DNA of 61,908 nt, filler included, from Deltaproteobacteria bacterium (GTDB lineage Bacteria > JAUYMQ01): the NCBI GenBank assembly GCA_030698575.1. It is 11 parts of 11 records of this genome, joined end to end, with 100 filler letters (N's around TTAATTAATTAA, not from the genome) between each part and the next. Parts side by side here need not be neighbours in the genome. Positions count along the whole stretch, not along the records: positions 12,481 to 16,240 come from JAUYMQ010000537.1; 10 more parts are not named here. One strand, written 5' to 3'. Shown piece by piece: positions 12,381 to 19,171 of the stretch; within the stretch, counting starts at the first letter, position 1, and each line of letters starts with the position of its first letter. Both the position numbers and the translations under genes were made by a program. The notes below the pieces were generated by a model. That model searched no databases, was not told the DNA's origin, and saw only the letters and a program-made list of their open reading frames with translations.

Positions 12381-12480
12381 NNNNNNNNNNNNNNNNNNNN
12401 NNNNNNNNNNNNNNNNNNNNNNNNTTAATTAATTAANNNNNNNNNNNNNNNNNNNNNNNNNNNNNNNNNNNNNNNNNNNN

Positions 12481-13262
12481 GTCGTGCCGTTGGAAACATT
12501 CATGGCGCCGCCGGCGGTAATGGCGCCACCGGAAATACTGAAACTCGAATTGTCAGAATTCCGCTGGCCGACGATGATCTGGTTGCTGATCGTGGCGGTG
12601 CCGTTCGTCTGATTATAGGCCGCCTTGGCCCCATAGTTGCCGATGATAAGATGTGCTTGGTTAACCGATAGTTCCGAGGTGGCGCCATCCATATTGACGT
12701 AGCCTTGAACCCCGTTACTGCTCCCGGTCCGCTCGGCAAGTGTGAGATTGCCGTCTAGAAGGATTAATTTGCCGCCATTGGTGATATTGACCGTGCCGGT
12801 TCGATTGACGTTGTTTCCATAGCCGACCACCACGAGCCGGTTCGCTGTGACCGTCGCATTGTCGATGTTGAGCGTGCCGTTTGGCGCGGTGCCGTTGGCG
12901 GCGCCGACCCACATCGCCGCGTTCCCGACGCCGGACGCCCCGGCGGTAAGCGTGAGTTGGGCGCCGTTGTTGATCGTGACCGTACCCGTTCCATTCAGTG
13001 TCGACAGCGTCGCCTGGTTGTGACCAACACGGAGCTTTCCGAAGTCGGCGGTCCCGTCAAACGTTGCCGTCCCGCCGGCGCCAAAATTAATGACGTCGCC
13101 GGGCAGCGGAGACGAGAGCGCAGCCGTGCCGTCCGTGTTGGTGTAGTTGGCGTCGGTCAGGATGCGCGTTCCGCCCTGCCAGAAAAGGTCTGCCGCCTGA
13201 AGCTGAGAGGTGGCCGACAACACTAGAGCCGCGGCCCAAAGCAATGATGTACGTCGATTCAT
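12481..13262 (-). CDS. Secreted Gly/Asn/Thr-rich beta-repeat surface protein (3'-truncated)
   Basis: Signal peptide MNRRTSLLWAAALVLSATSQLQA; repeated GTVTI/GTLNI/GTVNI strands. Confidence 0.75.
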
Positions 13263-13453
13263 ATCTCTTTACTCCCGTTTACAAACAATGGTGATTCTTC
13301 AACCCGCTTTGCGTTTCGACAGCCAACACGGCTTATAATCGCGATTACAACCAGTAGTTCCACGAGCGTAAAACCGTGTAGGGGCCTGGAGAAGTTGGTA
13401 CGCTTCTCCGTAGTTGTTTTTACCTTTTGGCCCCGTACACGGAGAGTTTTTCC

Positions 13454-14539
13454 ATGTCGAGCGCGTTTCAATCGTTTGTGGGAGTTGACTTGCACAAGTG
13501 CACCGTGACGCTGACCGCCGTCGATGCGGCGGGAGAGATCACCCGGCTTAAGATCAGCACGAAGAGCACGGGCAAGATCGAGGCTTGGCTGCAGGCGCTT
13601 CCTGGCCCGGTGCACTTGGCCGTGGAAGCCTGCCCGTTCGTGGAATGGTTCATCGATCGTTTTCGCGACTGCGTCGCGCGGATCGACATCGCCGACGCCA
13701 CGGAACTGGCAAGCCGTCGCGGTAAGCGGCGCAAGACCGACTGGAACGATTCGCTGGACATCGCCGCGCGACTGGCGCGCGGCGAGTGCCCGCTGGGATT
13801 CATCGCCGACGAGGAGCTGATGCAGCTCCGTAAGCGGGGCCGGCACTGGCGTCACTTGAGTCGATTGTTGTCCCGCAGCAAGCATGCCATGAAGAGCATG
13901 CTCAACGCGGCCAACATTCGCGGCCCCAAGTTCGACGGCGCCGCGGCCCAGCGCTGGCTGCTCGCGAACCGGGACCTCTTGAAGCCGGTCCAGCAACAGG
14001 CCTTCGCCGACTTCATCGACGTCGTCATGCTCACCGAGCGTCATCGAGAGCGGCTGCGGCGCGAGATCAACTTCGCCACGCGGAGCGAGCGGTTCACGCC
14101 GATCATCTCGCTGCTGGTGAGCGTGCCCGGCATTGGAGAGATCTGGGCGGCGATCATCGCCGCCGAGATCGGACCCTTCGATCGCTTTCCCAACGCCGAC
14201 ACCCTCGAGTTCTGGGCGGGCCTTACCGCCGACATGAAGGAGTCGGCCGGACGCACTCAAAGCGGCAACATCACCAAGGCCGGTTCGGTCACGTTGCGGT
14301 GGGCCTTGTGCCAGGCGGCCGTCACGCTCTGCCAGTGCGATGCCCGACAGGAAGCGATTCGCCAGCGACTGGTAAAGAGGCTTGGTAAACCCAAGGCCAA
14401 CGTCGCCATGGGCCGCCGGCTGCTGCGCGTGTTGTACGCCATGATGCGAGACGGAAAAACCTTCGAGCGAGGACCGGCCAGAGACCGGACCGCGGCCGCT
14501 AACCGGGTACGCCTCGGAAGAAAGAAGCAAGTGGCTTAA
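13454..14539 (+). CDS. IS110 family transposase/recombinase
   Basis: FVGVDLHK, AVEAC, KTDWNDS (DEDD domain); SVPGIG...AEIG..RF...WAGL..ESAG...ITKAGSVTLRWAL (Tnp_20 domain); GGAGAG RBS. Confidence 0.96.
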   Translation: MSSAFQSFVGVDLHKCTVTLTAVDAAGEITRLKISTKSTGKIEAWLQALPGPVHLAVEACPFVEWFIDRFRDCVARIDIADATELASRRGKRRKTDWNDSLDIAARLARGECPLGFIADEELMQLRKRGRHWRHLSRLLSRSKHAMKSMLNAANIRGPKFDGAAAQRWLLANRDLLKPVQQQAFADFIDVVMLTERHRERLRREINFATRSERFTPIISLLVSVPGIGEIWAAIIAAEIGPFDRFPNADTLEFWAGLTADMKESAGRTQSGNITKAGSVTLRWALCQAAVTLCQCDARQEAIRQRLVKRLGKPKANVAMGRRLLRVLYAMMRDGKTFERGPARDRTAAANRVRLGRKKQVA

Positions 14540-14599
14540 CCCCGGAGACAAAGAATCATTGACGCAGTGCGGAATCTTTGTGGCGTCTCGCTGCGGCGA

Positions 14600-14830
14600 C
14601 GGCGCCCCAGCGGATTGGTGACCGCGACCGGCCTTCATTCGGCCCAAGCGGCTCTCGTTCTCTCCCAGAGAAAAGAGCATCCCTTGGTGACCGCGACAGC
14701 GTGAATTCGGCCCGACCGCTGCGAACATGGTTTTATTCAGCCCGGTGAACACGTGTCGGCATGATGACCGCCACGTCCGGTGACTGCGTAGAGATGAATT
14801 CAACCGCCGCGCCGCTTCGCCCAAGCGACG
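14600..14830 (+). ncRNA. Putative bridge/seek-type guide RNA of the IS (boundaries approximate)
   Basis: Repeated scaffold TTGGTGACCGCGAC...TTCGGCCC frames target-matching segments; two further segments match the donor junction. Confidence 0.75.
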
Positions 14831-15249
14831 CAGGACGGACAACGCGATTCCGCCAACACAACTCAGGGCAACCGTCATCCTGCGGAGAGACCACAATGCC
14901 GGAACCATGAGGGAAAGAAAATTGTTCAGCAGCCGTTGACCTACGGCCCCTACAGAGATGAACCCGCCCTGCGAGCGACTACGAAAAGAGGCGAACATTT
15001 TCACGAACCTCCGCCTGGCTCTACCGCTGGCTTTTTAGCTGTTAAAGCACTTGAACAGATACTAGCTGAATTTGTCAGTTAATGCCAGTGGGGAGCCGGA
15101 AAAACGCGGCAAGGCACGACACATGCCAATTATAAGGCGCCGCGTAAAAAACAGGCAAACACCTGTTGGCCCATCAGGCCAATGTCATTCTGAGCAAAAC
15201 GACGAATCCGGCTTGCCCCAGTATAGATCCTTCGGTCGCTTAGGCTGCT

Positions 15250-16240: not shown

Positions 16241-16340
16241 NNNNNNNNNNNNNNNNNNNNNNNNNNNNNNNNNNNNNNNNNNNNTTAATTAATTAANNNN
16301 NNNNNNNNNNNNNNNNNNNNNNNNNNNNNNNNNNNNNNNN

Positions 16341-16901
16341 TCCGGGGGCGGGCTCGAACTGTCTGACGAAGATGTGCAGGAACTCTCCGACTCCATCGAC
16401 ATTCCCGAAGGTCTTCTGGAGAGGTTGGGAACAGATACGCAGCGCAACCTGAAAATCATCGCTGCCGTTGAAGACCTAATAGGCCGGCACCGCAGGATCA
16501 TCGTGTTTGCCCCGTCCGTTGAGAATGCGCGTTTGCTCGCGGCAATCCTGACGGCTCGCGAATACGACGCAGATGTCGTCACAGGGCAGACTAATTCTTC
16601 GGAGAGAGAAAGAATCATTAGGCGTTTCAGAAGCAATGCGAATCGCTCTATGGTTTTAATCAATTACGGTGTGCTGACGACCGGTTTTGACGCCCCTGCG
16701 ACAAGCGCTGCGGTCATTGCCCGCCCCACAAAGTCCCTAGTCCTGTACAGCCAGATGGTTGGGCGAGCGACCCGGGGGCCGCGAGCAGGCGGCAATGCGG
16801 AAGCCGAAATCGTGACCGTTGCCGATCCCCATTTGCCGGGGTTCGGCAGCATCGCTGACGCATTCAAAAATTGGGAGGACGTTTGGCATGAACCAGGCTG
16901 A
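16341..16901 (+). CDS. SF2 DEAD/DEAH-box helicase, C-terminal part
   Basis: IIVFAPSV, VLTTGFDAP (motif V), YSQMVGRATRG (motif VI). Confidence 0.9.
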   Translation, partial: SGGGLELSDEDVQELSDSIDIPEGLLERLGTDTQRNLKIIAAVEDLIGRHRRIIVFAPSVENARLLAAILTAREYDADVVTGQTNSSERERIIRRFRSNANRSMVLINYGVLTTGFDAPATSAAVIARPTKSLVLYSQMVGRATRGPRAGGNAEAEIVTVADPHLPGFGSIADAFKNWEDVWHEPG

Positions 16902-18708
16902 CGCGCCACAGAGGCTAGAGGGTGAAATCATACCGCCGGAACTTGCTGTCCGCGCGATGCGCGACAGCGGGTATCGCAACACGGCCTATGCGCTCGCGGA
17001 GCTGATCGACAACTCGGTCCAAGCAAAAGCGCGCAGCGTCGATGTCATCTGTATACAGGGATACGAGCTGGTCAATCAGCGGGAACGGCGCCGTATGAGC
17101 GCCATTGGCGTTCTCGACAATGGCGAGGGCATGACCCCGGAGGTTCTGCGGCTCGCGTTGCAGTTTGGTAATGGCACCCATTTGACCGACCGCCGTGGCA
17201 TTGGCCGGTTCGGCATGGGTCTGCCGAACTCGTCTATCTCCCAGTGCCGCCGCGTCGAGGTCTGGACGTGGCAAAACGGGCCGGACAATGCGCTCTACAC
17301 CTATCTCGACGTGGATGAAATTGAAGGCCGTAGGCTCTACGCCGTGCCGTTCCCGGTCGCGCAGCCCCTTCCCGAAGAGTGGAGAGCGCGCTCCGATATC
17401 GTCGATACCACCGGTACGCTTGTCGTCTGGACAAAATTCGATGAACACAGGCTCACATGGCGCGGAGCGCCGGCCACACTGCGGCACACCGAGACGCTCG
17501 TCGGCCGCATGTACCGCAAGTTCATAGACGATGGCCGGCTAGCGATACGGCTTGTGGCGCTTGAGGATGACGAGCCGACATTCGATCAGTATGTGCGCGT
17601 CAATGATCCGCTCTACCTGATGAAAAACTCCTCTACGCCCGCCCCGTTCGACAAGGAACCTATGTTCCAGCGCTGGGGTGACGACGACGAGGTCTTTACC
17701 ATCGAGTATGGCGGCGCAAAACACGATGTCATCGTGCGCATGAGCTGGGCGCGCCCGGAAACCGTCCCGGATGACCGAAGCGATCGCGGCGCCAAACCCT
17801 ATGGCAAGCACGCCGCAAAGAATCTTGGCGTTTCAGTCGTCAGAGCAGGGCGTGAACTCGACCTCGATAGCGGCTGGACCAACAGCTACGATCCGACCGA
17901 ACGTTGGTGGGGTGTTGAAGTTGAGTTTCCGCCGGCACTTGATGAGGTGTTTGGAGTCACCAACAACAAGCAAAGCACAACCATTTTTTCTCACATGGCC
18001 CAGTTTGACTGGCGTGCCGAGGCGAACCCCGGCGAGTCGATGTCCGAGTTTCGTGAGCGCGTTCAAGGCGAAGGAGATCCGCGCGCCCTGCTCTTGCCGA
18101 TCGTGGATCACATCCGCCAGCAGATCCAGGAAGTGCGAGGTCGGCTCAAGAAACAAACAGCCGGTCGCCGCACTAAAACCGATCGCCACGACAAGCCGAC
18201 GGTCGAAGACCTCGCCACCACGAAGTTCCGCGAGAGGGCCGAGCAAGGCCATGAAACGGAGTACGATAAGGAACAATTCAGAGAAGAAGACCGACAGAAA
18301 CTCGAAGAGGACCTACAAGAGGACAAGCACTATTCGGAAGACGTCGCCCGTGAAATCGCGGACGCAACGCTGACCCGCAAGCGCAAGGTGGTTTTTCTGA
18401 CGAAGGCGATGGAAGGCTATGCCTTCTTCAACGTTGAGCATAAGCAAGGGGGGCTGACCGCAATCGTCTTCAACACCAATCATCCCTTCTACGAGCAACT
18501 CATAGAGTCACTCCAGCCCGAGATCGGCGAGGAAACCGATAGCGAGCTTATCGACCGTGTCCATAAGGCGGCCGATACCCTTGAGCTGCTATTCGCCGCC
18601 TGGGCCCGTTACGAAATGGAAGAGGTCCGACAGCAGAACAGGCTTTTCGAGACACGCCAGGAATGGGGGAAGATGGCGCGGTTTTTCCTGACAGAAGACG
18701 ACGAATGA
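16888..18708 (+). CDS. GHKL (MORC/HATPase_c_3-like) ATPase
   Basis: ALAELIDNSVQA, DNGEGM, IGRFGMGL, TGTLV Bergerat-fold boxes; GGAGG RBS before ATG 16888. Confidence 0.88.
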   Translation: MNQADAPQRLEGEIIPPELAVRAMRDSGYRNTAYALAELIDNSVQAKARSVDVICIQGYELVNQRERRRMSAIGVLDNGEGMTPEVLRLALQFGNGTHLTDRRGIGRFGMGLPNSSISQCRRVEVWTWQNGPDNALYTYLDVDEIEGRRLYAVPFPVAQPLPEEWRARSDIVDTTGTLVVWTKFDEHRLTWRGAPATLRHTETLVGRMYRKFIDDGRLAIRLVALEDDEPTFDQYVRVNDPLYLMKNSSTPAPFDKEPMFQRWGDDDEVFTIEYGGAKHDVIVRMSWARPETVPDDRSDRGAKPYGKHAAKNLGVSVVRAGRELDLDSGWTNSYDPTERWWGVEVEFPPALDEVFGVTNNKQSTTIFSHMAQFDWRAEANPGESMSEFRERVQGEGDPRALLLPIVDHIRQQIQEVRGRLKKQTAGRRTKTDRHDKPTVEDLATTKFRERAEQGHETEYDKEQFREEDRQKLEEDLQEDKHYSEDVAREIADATLTRKRKVVFLTKAMEGYAFFNVEHKQGGLTAIVFNTNHPFYEQLIESLQPEIGEETDSELIDRVHKAADTLELLFAAWARYEMEEVRQQNRLFETRQEWGKMARFFLTEDDE

Positions 18709-18709
18709 A

Positions 18710-19071
18710 ATGTCCGTCGTGCTGCCGAGCGATGCTGTTTTGGATATCATGCGTACCGCATCAGGGGGCGTCCTCATCGCGGCGCCCTACATCAAATCCC
18801 ACGCACTCCGAAGATTGATCGCCGCACTCCCCGACGCCGCGTCCGGGCTGACCTGCATTACCCGCTGGCTTCCGGATGATATTGCGGCAGGCGTCTGCGA
18901 TATTGAGATTCTTGAGAACGTCACGGGCCGCCCCGGCGGCAAACTGCTCGTTCATCCTCATCTACATGCCAAGTATTACCGTTCCGGGGACCGTTGCCTT
19001 GTCGGGTCCGCCAATCTCACCGGGCGCGGACTCGGGTGGGTGACGCCGGCCAATGTCGAACTACTCGTAGA
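18710..19071 (+). CDS. Phospholipase D-family nuclease (3'-truncated)
   Basis: IAAPYI, HLHAKYY...VGSANLT...NVEL. Confidence 0.85.
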
Positions 19072-19171
19072 NNNNNNNNNNNNNNNNNNNNNNNNNNNNN
19101 NNNNNNNNNNNNNNNTTAATTAATTAANNNNNNNNNNNNNNNNNNNNNNNNNNNNNNNNNNNNNNNNNNNN

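What the first reader, a model, noticed from the sequence alone, without database searches (positions are those of the whole stretch)
14615..14805. Four-part guide RNA whose variable segments match the target and the donor
Seen in the non-coding region 3' of tnp: TTGGTGACCGCGAC-CG-GCCTTCA-TTCGGCCC (14615-14645) and TTGGTGACCGCGAC-AGCGT-GAATTCGGCCC (14684-14713), separated by a hairpin (14651-14678); then GGTTTTA-TTCAGCCC (14729) and AGAGAT-GAATTC (14790). AGCGT equals the target top strand up to the core T. GCCTTCA resembles the target bottom strand (GGGTTCA here; reads Ala-Phe-Thr codons). AGAGAT and GGTTTTA equal the top and bottom strands of the predicted circle junction CAGAGA-T-AAAACCG. 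All four end at the same core base and are followed by GAATTC or TTC. Known: this is bridge/seek RNA logic. Inference: a symmetric, potentially reprogrammable guide with a 1-nt core.
Basis: partly seen in the sequence, partly recalled or inferred. Interest (0 to 1): 0.9.

Follow-up and report, generated by a model that had tools for sequence, protein, structure and literature searches.

The report
Bridge RNA of a planctomycete insertion sequence
The stretch encodes the guide RNA of a small jumping gene that steers itself into one conserved codon motif shared by dozens of paralogous planctomycete genes; it is a well-supported new example of the known bridge/seek RNA mechanism.

Summary
Window 13370-14958 is a 1589-bp IS110-family element with IS1111-like layout: a 10-bp subterminal inverted repeat, a short left end and a 419-nt non-coding region 3' of the transposase gene. 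It interrupts the (G/A)F|TLVELLVV prepilin-type codons of a DUF1559-type gene.

The 3' region folds into two internal loops. On 26 homologues 92% of cells pair, against 25-41% in slid controls. The target loop carries guides a and b, the donor loop c and d. Each loop is closed by the same GGUGACCG/CGGCCC helix, which explains the direct repeats.

Guides a and b covary with the flanks:
- One relative (L012) sits in a different site, and both of its guides changed to match.
- The base next to the end of guide a tracks the Phe codon (TTC/TTT) of the site (Fisher 2e-5).

Guides c and d match the element ends, which never vary, so the donor side has no covariation test.

Near-identical sister copies differ at the first flank base after the shared T. 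This favours a single-base overlap.

No RNA ends or activity were shown. Verdict: a new member of a known kind, of moderate interest.

The parts
13360..13369 (+). Left half of the target (CCACGAGCGT). T13369 is the base shared with the right junction. On the minus strand it reads T-L-V-E codons.
13370..14958 (+). The insertion sequence (1589 bp; the shared T may be counted at either end).
   Evidence: Ends defined by comparison of 36 loci with different flanks.
13370..13376 (+). Left terminal extension AAAACCG. Together with the shared T, its first six bases (AAAACC) are complementary to guide c.
13377..13386 (+). Left subterminal inverted repeat TGTAGGGGCC.
   Evidence: I24, 10/10 complementary to 14945-14954; compensatory changes in L012 and L017/18/23
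13387..13420 (+). Hairpin plus T-run inside the left end, upstream of tnp (terminator-like).
   Evidence: equivalent hairpins with different stems are visible in the other loci (by eye)
13454..14539 (+). tnp, IS110-family DEDD transposase, 361 aa from the ATG that follows GGAGAG.
   Evidence: PF02371 5.5e-20; PF01548 1.4e-6, 28.6 bits against a cut-off of 29; IS621 1.4e-14, ISCro4 2.4e-13
14568..14576 (+). 5' strand of the basal helix P0. It pairs with 14846-14854.
   Evidence: helix 1. Only 72% of cells pair: the helix is present in 16 of 26 sequences and absent in one clade.
14606..14612 (+). 5' strand of helix P1, which closes the target loop domain. It pairs with 14717-14723.
   Evidence: helix 2 (5 pairs with changes on both sides, 99.7% of cells paired, counted together with S1)
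14615..14624 (+). UUGGUGACCG copy 1 (helix S1, 5' strand). It pairs with CGGCCCGA at 14708-14715.
14631..14637 (+). Guide a (GCCUUCA). It is complementary to the top strand of the right target half, including the shared T.
14640..14693 (+). Helix S2 (CGGCCC 14640-14645 with GGUGACCG copy 2 at 14686-14693) and its variable apical hairpin.
   Evidence: helix 3 (8 pairs with changes on both sides, 94% of cells paired)
14698..14705 (+). Guide b (AGCGU, 14698-14702), identical to the top strand of the left target half up to the shared T. It is followed by GAA (14703-14705), which is probably scaffold.
   Evidence: GAA is unchanged in the retargeted L012 but is AAA in L015 and L087.
14708..14723 (+). 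3' strands of S1 (14708-14715) and P1 (14717-14723).
14729..14735 (+). Guide c (GGUUUUA), complementary to T+AAAACC of the left end.
   Evidence: the last base is U in 4 elements
14738..14786 (+). Helix S3 (CAGCCCGG 14738-14745 with CCGGUGACUG 14777-14786) and its apical hairpin (14751-14776).
   Evidence: helices 4 and 5 (A-U 14 / G-C 12 at one pair, C-G 24 / U-A 2 at another)
14790..14798 (+). Guide d (AGAGAU, 14790-14795), identical to the right end plus the shared T, followed by GAA.
   Evidence: AGAGAT in 17 of 17 scaffold matches
14804..14838 (+). Helix P5, the hairpin that follows the donor loop.
   Evidence: helix 6 (7 pairs with changes on both sides)
14846..14854 (+). 3' strand of P0.
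14936..14941 (+). TTGACC, the -35 box of a promoter that would form only in the circle (17 nt, then T+AAAAC).
   Evidence: TTGAC at 23 nt from the end in 26 of 27 distinct right ends. Its function is inferred.
14945..14958 (+). Right subterminal inverted repeat GGCCCCTACA (14945-14954) and right extension GAGA.
14959..14965 (+). Right half of the target (TGAACCC). On the minus strand it reads G-F and the first base of Thr.
13259..15004 (-). The interrupted host gene. Its N-terminal leader (15004-14959) and TLVELLVVIAII... (13369 downwards) are split by the element. In this window the downstream part stops after 36 codons.

Best explanation
Window 13370-14958 is an insertion sequence of the IS110 family with IS1111-like organisation. 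The non-coding region 3' of its transposase gene encodes a bridge (seek) RNA of roughly 290 nt (about 14568-14854).

**Architecture.** The RNA has two internal loops.
- In the target loop the 5' strand carries guide a. It pairs with the top strand of T-GAA-NCC, to the right of the insertion point. The 3' strand carries guide b, which pairs with the bottom strand of AGNG-T, to the left.
- The donor loop is built the same way. Guide c pairs with the left end (T-AAAACC). Guide d pairs with the bottom strand of the right end (AGAGA-T), as these are joined in the excised circle.
- Each loop is bounded on both sides by the same GGUGACCG/CGGCCC helix, giving a pseudo-two-fold shape that suits a recombinase dimer per loop.

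**Reaction.** Recombination joins donor and target at the one base they share, a T. The element therefore lands between Phe and Thr of the motif (G/A)F|TLVELLVV, which heads 29 to 59 paralogous genes per genome.

**Shown here:** transposase family; element ends; RNA structure by covariation; covariation of a and b with the flanks; site preference.

**Inferred:** that the region is transcribed (from a promoter assembled in the circle) and processed; that c and d are used; that the overlap is one base; the protein stoichiometry.
For: 1. **Transposase.** PF02371 scores 5.5e-20 and PF01548 1.4e-6. The acidic and Ser motifs align with IS621.
2. **Same site in relatives.** 36 related loci were found. 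The codons after the insertion point read TL(V/I)E... in 22 of 23 left flanks. The codons before it end in (G/A)F in 16 of 18 right flanks. DUF1559 was found in 2 of 3 flank proteins tested.
3. **Structure.** On 26 sequences 92.1% of cells pair, against 24.7-40.5% with the partner slid. 26 pairs change on both sides, against 2-8 in the slid controls. 0 of 500 shuffles reach the observed values on four of the five measures; for further standard pair types, 36 of 500 do. G-U pairs (for example 11 of 26 at one S2 pair) fit this strand only. The single-sequence fold of 14605-14842 gives the same helices.
4. **Natural retargeting.** L012 lies in GACCGGTAT|...|TAATAGAGAG. Its b is GGTAT (5/5) and its a is CCTATTA (6/7), while c, d and the scaffold are unchanged.
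5. **Match to flanks.** Guide b matches 115 of 130 positions, or 123 of 130 with G-U. The shuffled means are 106.4 and 115.4 (p = 0.002 and fewer than 1 in 20000). Guide a matches 160 of 196, shuffled mean 148.0 (p = 0.003).
6. **Single-base tracking.** The base of a next to its end (C or U) against the flank base after T (G or A) over 36 distinct insertions gives [[9,1],[3,23]], Fisher 2.1e-5. In G001, 4 of 4 insertions are in TTC sites although only 2 of 29 free sites are TTC (hypergeometric 4.8e-4).
7. **Donor guides.** Guides c and d match the ends exactly (7 and 6 nt). They sit in a loop with the same flanking scaffold as a and b.
8. **Order of guides.** The top-strand-complementary guide lies 5' of the bottom-strand-complementary one, as reported for IS1111-family seekRNAs (PMC11187229, section 9 read).
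9. **One-base overlap.** Sister copies differ at 0-1 of 1613 or 1835 positions, yet 1 of 4 in each of two genomes differs at the base after the T at the right junction. That base therefore belongs to the flank.
Against: - **No direct RNA evidence.** The only hint is contigs of relatives (85-96% alike) in RNA libraries that cover tnp and the non-coding region. These may be DNA carry-over and show neither ends nor strand.
- **No known RNA family.** No Rfam family matches.
- **Donor guides untested.** d was AGAGAT in 17 of 17 scaffold matches, and c differs only in its last base in 4 elements, so the donor guides have no covariation support. For ISEc11, a short seekRNA carrying only target matches sufficed (PMC11187229, section 10 read).
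- **Imperfect match in this copy.** Guide a matches its flank at only 5 of 7 positions. Guide b shows a C:C mismatch at its middle position in 7 of 26 insertions.
- **Weaker statistics without L012.** Guide a gives p = 0.04 (identity) and 0.25 (with wobble). Guide b gives 0.06 (identity) and 0.0004 (with wobble). Insertions of one lineage are not independent.
- **P0.** This helix is absent in 10 of 26 sequences.
- **Ends that disagree with c or d.** Three left ends start GAAACC (L025, L034, L036) and one right end reads CAGAGG (L011).
Confidence: 0.85

Rival explanations
1. Only the target loop is a guide (the seekRNA model). The ends are recognised by the transposase through the subterminal inverted repeats. 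The matches of c and d to the ends are then scaffold or leftovers of a duplication of the target loop.
For: - The short ISEc11 seekRNA with target matches alone supported transposition (PMC11187229, section 10 read).
- c and d never vary, so nothing shows that they are read.
- The inverted repeats keep complementarity through paired changes in L012 and L017/18/23, so they are under selection of their own.
- The core position of c is U instead of A in 4 elements.
Against: - Matches of 7 and 6 nt sit exactly at the loop positions that a and b occupy in the other loop, next to the same flanking motifs.
- S3 is kept by perfect covariation.
- The deletion derivative L036 has lost the target loop and c but keeps d and both ends.
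- Donor loops were predicted for IS1111-group elements (PMC11208160, passages read).
Confidence: 0.12
2. The crossover lies at the AA two bases to the right (target AGNGTA-AA-NCC, the common TTT type; donor CAGAGATG-AA-ACCG). The 3'-terminal CA of a and UA of c then act as IS621-like handshake bases that pair with the non-cognate partner after strand exchange.
For: - Free sites are mostly TTT: 27 of 29 in G001, 46 of 59 in G003, 42 of 51 in G005 and 48 of 57 in G576.
- A 2-nt core and a handshake base next to it would mirror IS621 (PMC11208158, passages read).
- d plus its extension (AGAGAUGAA) would match the donor over 9 nt.
- Three left junctions carry G after the T, as expected for occasional TTC targets.
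Against: - Sister copies identical at all but 0-1 positions differ at that base of the right junction in G003 (L031) and G576 (L097). Under this model the base is part of the element.
- L097 has A at the left and G at the right junction, which neither partner could supply.
- a, b and c would each mismatch or wobble with their own partner.
- L012 limits the crossover to the first three bases after the flank.
Confidence: 0.1
3. The repeats are DNA-level features (transposase binding sites, or a 3' UTR or terminator of tnp) and not a guide RNA.
For: - The direct repeats of 14 nt first suggest binding sites.
- No Rfam hit.
- No internal sigma-70-like promoter.
Against: - The repeats pair crosswise with the CGGCCC motifs, with compensatory and G-U changes that are strand-specific.
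- The segments between them follow the flanks, which a binding site or terminator would not do.
Confidence: 0.03

Closest known systems
seekRNAs of IS1111-family elements (ISEc11, ISPa11, ISKpn4, ISPst6; Siddiquee et al. 2024, PMC11187229)
   Same: - Non-coding region 3' of tnp, subterminal inverted repeats and a short left end.
- Two short segments match the two strands of the target and overlap at the insertion point, with the top-strand-complementary one 5'.
- Natural retargeting between relatives (ISEc11 against ISXne4 there; this family against L012 here).
- A promoter assembled by joining the ends.
   Different: - Terminal extensions are 7 (plus T) and 4 bp, not 7 and 3.
- The inverted repeat is 10 bp, not 11-13.
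- The transposase has 361 aa (330-350 reported), and GLTADMKESAG stands in place of GL-P----S(t)G.
- One shared base, where ISEc11 repeats 4 bp.
- Clear donor-type segments in a second loop.
- The host phylum and the target (a coding motif) differ.

Supplementary figures of that paper could not be seen, so the folds were not compared.
IS621 bridge RNA (IS110 group; Durrant et al. 2024, PMC11208160; Hiraizumi et al. 2024, PMC11208158)
   Same: - Two internal loops, each with one guide per DNA strand, for target and donor.
- Guides meet at the core.
- DEDD/Ser recombinase (C-terminal domain E = 1.4e-14).
   Different: - The IS621 RNA is encoded 5' of tnp, in the left end.
- The guide order is reversed.
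- IS621 has a 2-nt CT core, against a single shared T here.
- No handshake bases are evident under the favoured model.
- The helices bounding each loop are one repeated module here.
IS110-family elements that use repeated sequences as targets (REP sequences, attC sites, Tn21 inverted repeats; cited in PMC11208160 and PMC12288879, reference lists and abstract seen)
   Same: A multi-copy short sequence serves as a reservoir of insertion sites.
   Different: Here the repeat is the coding sequence of a conserved N-terminal peptide motif of a paralogous gene family. Insertion breaks the gene, and the guide positions that vary lie opposite synonymous codon positions.

Membership tests
IS110 family (DEDD transposase elements) | C-terminal Transposase_20 domain (PF02371) | tested here: met
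   72 bits, E = 5.5e-20, cut-off 21.3
IS110 family (DEDD transposase elements) | N-terminal RuvC-like DEDD domain (PF01548) | tested here: inconclusive
   28.6 bits against a cut-off of 29 (E = 1.4e-6), covering 1-152 of 155 profile positions. The D, E and D..D motifs align with IS621 in a weak stretch (domain 1, 6.2 bits).
IS110 family (DEDD transposase elements) | Site-specific, oriented insertion without terminal inverted repeats or target duplication | tested here: met
   The same site and orientation in 22 of 23 left flanks. Only one T is common to both junctions.
IS1111 group | Subterminal inverted repeats (11-13 bp reported) | tested here: met
   10 bp, perfect (I24); kept by paired changes in L012 and L017/18/23. 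One base shorter than the reported range.
IS1111 group | Long non-coding region downstream of tnp and a short left end | tested here: met
   419 nt (14540-14958) against 84 nt (13370-13453)
IS1111 group | Terminal extensions of 7 bp (left) and 3 bp (right) | tested here: not met
   AAAACCG (7, or 8 with the shared T) and GAGA (4). The rule is taken from PMC11187229 (passage read).
IS1111 group | Transposase clusters with IS1111 relatives; GL-P----S(t)G motif; 330-350 aa | tested here: inconclusive
   361 aa. GLTADMKESAG has the Ser but no Pro or Gly at the named places. No tree with reference IS1111 transposases was made, because no reference sequences were at hand.
Bridge RNA / seekRNA | Structured RNA encoded in the element's non-coding end | tested here: met
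   Covariation. That it exists as RNA was not shown.
Bridge RNA / seekRNA | Two segments matching opposite strands of the target on either side of the insertion point, changing with the target | tested here: met
Bridge RNA / seekRNA | Two segments matching opposite strands of the donor (joined ends), changing with the ends | tested here: inconclusive
   Exact matches, but the ends and the guides are invariant in all copies.
Bridge RNA / seekRNA | RNA is made, binds the transposase and is required for movement | not testable with these tools
   Only contigs of relatives in RNA libraries, which show neither ends nor strand.
Rfam families | Match to a curated covariance model | tested here: not met
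   4 matches with E 4.4-5.9, all far below the gathering scores and none in 14560-14860

The most novel reading that the evidence does not exclude
This lineage recombines donor and target through a single shared base. Natural IS621 needs a fixed dinucleotide core. Both loops here are built from one repeated helix module. If so, it is a bridge recombinase whose only fixed requirement at the site is one T. It also reads the first base after the crossover well enough to tell TTC from TTT sites.

The excess of TTT in the free sites of the host's DUF1559 genes might then partly reflect escape from the element.
Probability: 0.4. Interest if true: 0.6.

Novelty: new member of a known kind. Interest (0 to 1): 0.45.

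Why it matters
It gives a clean natural data set for how an IS1111-like bridge RNA reads DNA.
- Dozens of near-identical target sites per genome differ mainly at synonymous positions.
- Several guide variants exist, and one natural retargeting event.
- A possible one-base overlap would relax the sequence constraint that a fixed core puts on programmable recombinases.

It also shows a mobile element that uses a conserved protein-coding motif of a large, mostly dispensable paralogue family as its landing pad. In Planctopirus limnophila the DUF1559 family has 68 paralogues, the largest paralogue group of that genome (PMC10632474, passage read).

The mechanism itself is already known and was predicted for most elements of this group.

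Tried and rejected
- **Rfam scan of 13200-15100**: only chance-level hits.
- **Global fold of 14540-14960**: z = -0.58, not informative. RNAalifold alone mispaired the donor loop, so the structure was set by hand and then tested.
- **Own genome:** not held.
- **Loose pattern in 401 genomes of the phylum**: 48 matches, of which only the known L012 copy was real.
- **Metagenome scan for retargeted b guides**: 3 hits, all chance.
- **Scaffold pattern in 301 genomes of the order**: 17 real copies but no variant donor guide, so no covariation test for c and d.
- **Search for an empty orthologous site** with the right flank of L008 in 30 relatives: only the query itself.
- **Promoter scan**: no sigma-70-like site inside the element.
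- **RNA libraries**: shares of 0.04-0.09 and contigs of relatives only. Parts without cover and the many contigs at 13338-13376 (other genes with the same motif) say nothing.
- **GAA after b and d:** a heteroduplex (4-base core) model was considered and set aside because the junction combination G-left/A-right never occurs. Reading UU after a and c as handshake bases fits a but not c.
- **Dropped before counting:**
  - L025 was left out of the guide-a counts because its a module did not fit the search expression.
  - L012 was left out of the 2x2 table.
  - Duplicate views of one insertion (for example L083 = L004, L082 = L002) were counted once.

Full report
**What is there.** They lie in the 419-nt non-coding stretch between the stop of an ORF (13454-14539) and the right end of a mobile element.
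- The ORF is an IS110-family transposase. Transposase_20 scores 72 bits and DEDD_Tnp_IS110 28.6 bits, just under its cut-off of 29.
- Its nearest solved relatives are the IS621 and ISCro4 transposases, and the acidic and Ser motifs align.
- The element runs from AAAACCG-TGTAGGGGCC (13370) to GGCCCCTACA-GAGA (14958). The 10-bp inverted repeat is subterminal.
- Rfam has no matching family. No whole genome is held for the window.

**Relatives and target.**
- A scan of one genome per species found 36 loci encoding relatives at 38-93% identity. 34 of the 36 record titles name Planctomycetota lineages.
- Their flanks differ but their ends are the same, which fixes the element's boundaries.
- On the opposite strand, the flank to the left reads TL(V/I)E... 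in 22 of 23 cases. The flank to the right ends in (G/A)F in 16 of 18.
- The element therefore splits the prepilin-type N-terminal motif (G/A)F|TLVELLVVIAII, always in one orientation.
- Two of three downstream gene parts tested are DUF1559 proteins (3e-43 and 1e-45).
- A strict pattern for the intact motif finds 29, 29, 59, 51 and 57 copies in five host genomes, and none for the reversed control.

**The RNA structure.** I aligned 26 distinct non-coding regions (A1). RNAalifold found most helices but mispaired the donor part, so I wrote a structure by hand and tested it.
- 92.1% of 1638 cells pair, against 24.7-40.5% when the 3' partners are slid by 1-3 columns.
- 26 of 63 pairs show changes on both sides, against 2-8 in the slid controls. 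0 of 500 shuffles reach the observed values on four of the five measures; for further standard pair types, 36 of 500 do.
- The fold of the window sequence alone gives the same helices.

The direct repeats have a simple explanation. GGUGACCG copy 1 pairs with the CGGCCC that follows guide b. The CGGCCC that follows guide a pairs with GGUGACCG copy 2.
- The target loop is thus an internal loop with strands CGAC-a-UU and CGAC-b-GAAUU, closed at both sides by the same helix in opposite orientation.
- The donor loop repeats this plan. CAGCCCGG pairs with CCGGUGACUG with perfect covariation (A-U 14 against G-C 12; C-G 24 against U-A 2). Guide c lies on the 5' strand and guide d on the 3' strand.
- G-U pairs are frequent, so the structure belongs to this strand.
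- A basal helix (14568-14576 with 14846-14854) is present in only 16 of 26 sequences.

**Do the variable segments read the DNA?**
- *Natural retargeting.* L012 (72% identical transposase) sits in a different sequence, GACCGGTAT|element|TAATAGAGAG. Its b is GGTAT and its a is CCTATTA. Scaffold, c, d and the ends are unchanged.
- *Guide b.* Within the family that uses the pilin motif, b occurs as AGCGU, AGUGU, AGGGU, AACGU, AGAGU and CGUGU. The varying positions face the third base of the Thr codon and the first base of the Leu codon. b matches its own flank at 115 of 130 positions, or 123 of 130 if G-U is allowed, more than shuffled pairings (106.4 and 115.4). The 7 remaining mismatches are all C:C.
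- *Guide a.* It matches at 160 of 196 positions (shuffled mean 148.0, p = 0.003; 0.04 without L012).
- *One position is sharp.* Elements whose a ends in UUCA sit before TGAA in 23 of 26 insertions. Those ending in UUUA sit before TAAA in 9 of 10 (Fisher 2.1e-5). In genome G001, all 4 insertions with a known right flank are in TTC sites, though only 2 of 29 free sites are TTC (hypergeometric 4.8e-4).
- *Caveat.* Copies of one lineage are not independent, so these p-values are generous. The UUUA type arose in at least four lineages (L006; L015/L087; the G005 set; G576).

**The donor side.**
- c (GGUUUUA) and d (AGAGAU) match the left and right ends exactly, at the loop positions that a and b hold in the other loop.
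- Every copy found has the same ends and the same d: 17 of 17 scaffold matches in 301 genomes of the order, none in the control. c varies only in its last base, in 4 elements.
- No covariation test is therefore possible, and the seekRNA-only rival stays open. For ISEc11 a short RNA with target matches alone was enough (PMC11187229, section 10).
- The two inverted repeats keep their complementarity through paired changes (L012; L017/18/23). In the circle they would flank the 12 bases GAGA-T-AAAACCG that c and d match.

**Where is the crossover?** Left junctions read AGNG-T-AAAACC and right junctions CAGAGA-T-GAANCC. T is the only base common to both.
- A rival places the exchange at the AA two bases on. 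The target would then be the common TTT type, and the 3' ends of a and c would act as IS621-like handshake bases (PMC11208158). This rival is attractive because most free sites are TTT.
- Sister copies decide against it. In G003 and in G576, four copies differ at 0-1 of 1613 or 1835 positions, yet one copy in each genome differs at the base after the T of the right junction. That base therefore comes from the target.
The stagger of cleavage was not observed.
- Three left ends with G at that place (L025, L034, L036) remain unexplained under the favoured model, unless U-G wobble with c tolerates them.

**Expression.**
- No sigma-70-like promoter lies inside the element.
- TTGAC stands exactly 23 nt from the right end in 26 of 27 distinct right ends. 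Joining the ends would therefore give TTGACC-17 nt-TAAAAC. Junction promoters of this kind are described for the family (PMC11187229 and PMC13604230, passages read).
- RNA libraries hold contigs of relatives that cover tnp and the non-coding region. This is a weak hint only.

**Comparison and novelty.**
- The element works like the IS1111-type seekRNA/bridge RNA systems and shares their layout and guide order.
- It departs from the published IS1111 definition in the lengths of the terminal extensions and in the transposase motif. I made no tree. I therefore file it as an IS110-family element with IS1111-like organisation.
- Bridge RNAs were predicted in 93% of IS1111 elements (PMC11208160), so the kind is known.
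- Searches of the paper library for DUF1559 with 'insertion sequence' (the one paper found is unrelated), and for IS110, bridge RNA or seekRNA together with Planctomycetes or Planctomycetota (none of the 12 listed papers contains either planctomycete term), found no description of this element or its target.
- Supplementary figures of the two 2024 papers were not available. The pseudo-symmetric scaffold may therefore already be drawn there for other IS1111 members.

Noticed in passing
window 13431-13444 with 13374-13386: Inside the left end, GGCCCCGTACACGG just before the ribosome-binding site is complementary to the left inverted repeat (I23). In a transcript started at the joined ends, this would fold the 5' leader around the terminator-like hairpin at 13387-13420.
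   Followed up: no
G001, G003, G005, G576: Free copies of the FTLVELLVV motif use TTT for Phe far more often than TTC (TTC in 2/29, 13/59, 9/51 and 9/57; 11/29 in G002). Most elements carry a guide for TTC. Whether this is general codon usage or avoidance of the element was not tested.
   Followed up: partly
left junctions, e.g. window 13364-13376; G001:C3:2708192: The left end (T)AAAACC mimics the right half of the target. The left junction therefore reads GGT TTT ACN CTN on the gene strand and is picked up by the pattern for intact sites. In L087, guide a is identical to guide c.
   Followed up: partly
L036 2402-3057; L001; L029; L085: Deletion derivatives. L036 is about 650 bp and keeps both ends, a tnp fragment and guide d, but has lost the target loop and guide c. 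L001, L029 and L085 have lost guide a or more.
   Followed up: no
L018 2402-6071 (G001): Two copies of the element lie in the same orientation about 2.2 kb apart, start to start, each in its own motif-bearing gene.
   Followed up: no
window 14731-14736 with 14788-14793: In the single-sequence fold, guide c pairs weakly with guide d through G-U-rich pairs. This could be a closed state of the donor loop or could mean nothing.
   Followed up: no
window 16374-19123: Downstream neighbours are a helicase C-terminal fragment (16374-16901), a GHKL-type ATPase of 629 aa (16819-18708) and a short ORF with an HxK-like motif (seen by eye). This could be a defence-type cluster.
   Followed up: no
window about 12386-12480, 16289-16340, 19070-19123: ORF translations contain runs of X, so the window holds short masked (N) stretches there.
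   Followed up: no
L005, L015: Two short contigs (1.4 and 1.7 kb) carrying the element are filed under Gemmatimonadota and Terriglobales bins. Mis-binning of a repeat is the likely reason.
   Followed up: no
window 13259-13369 minus strand: In this window the interrupted gene stops 36 codons after the insertion point (TLVELLVVIAIISRVGCRNAKRV...). Other loci continue for 230-375 codons. The host gene here seems to have decayed already.
   Followed up: no
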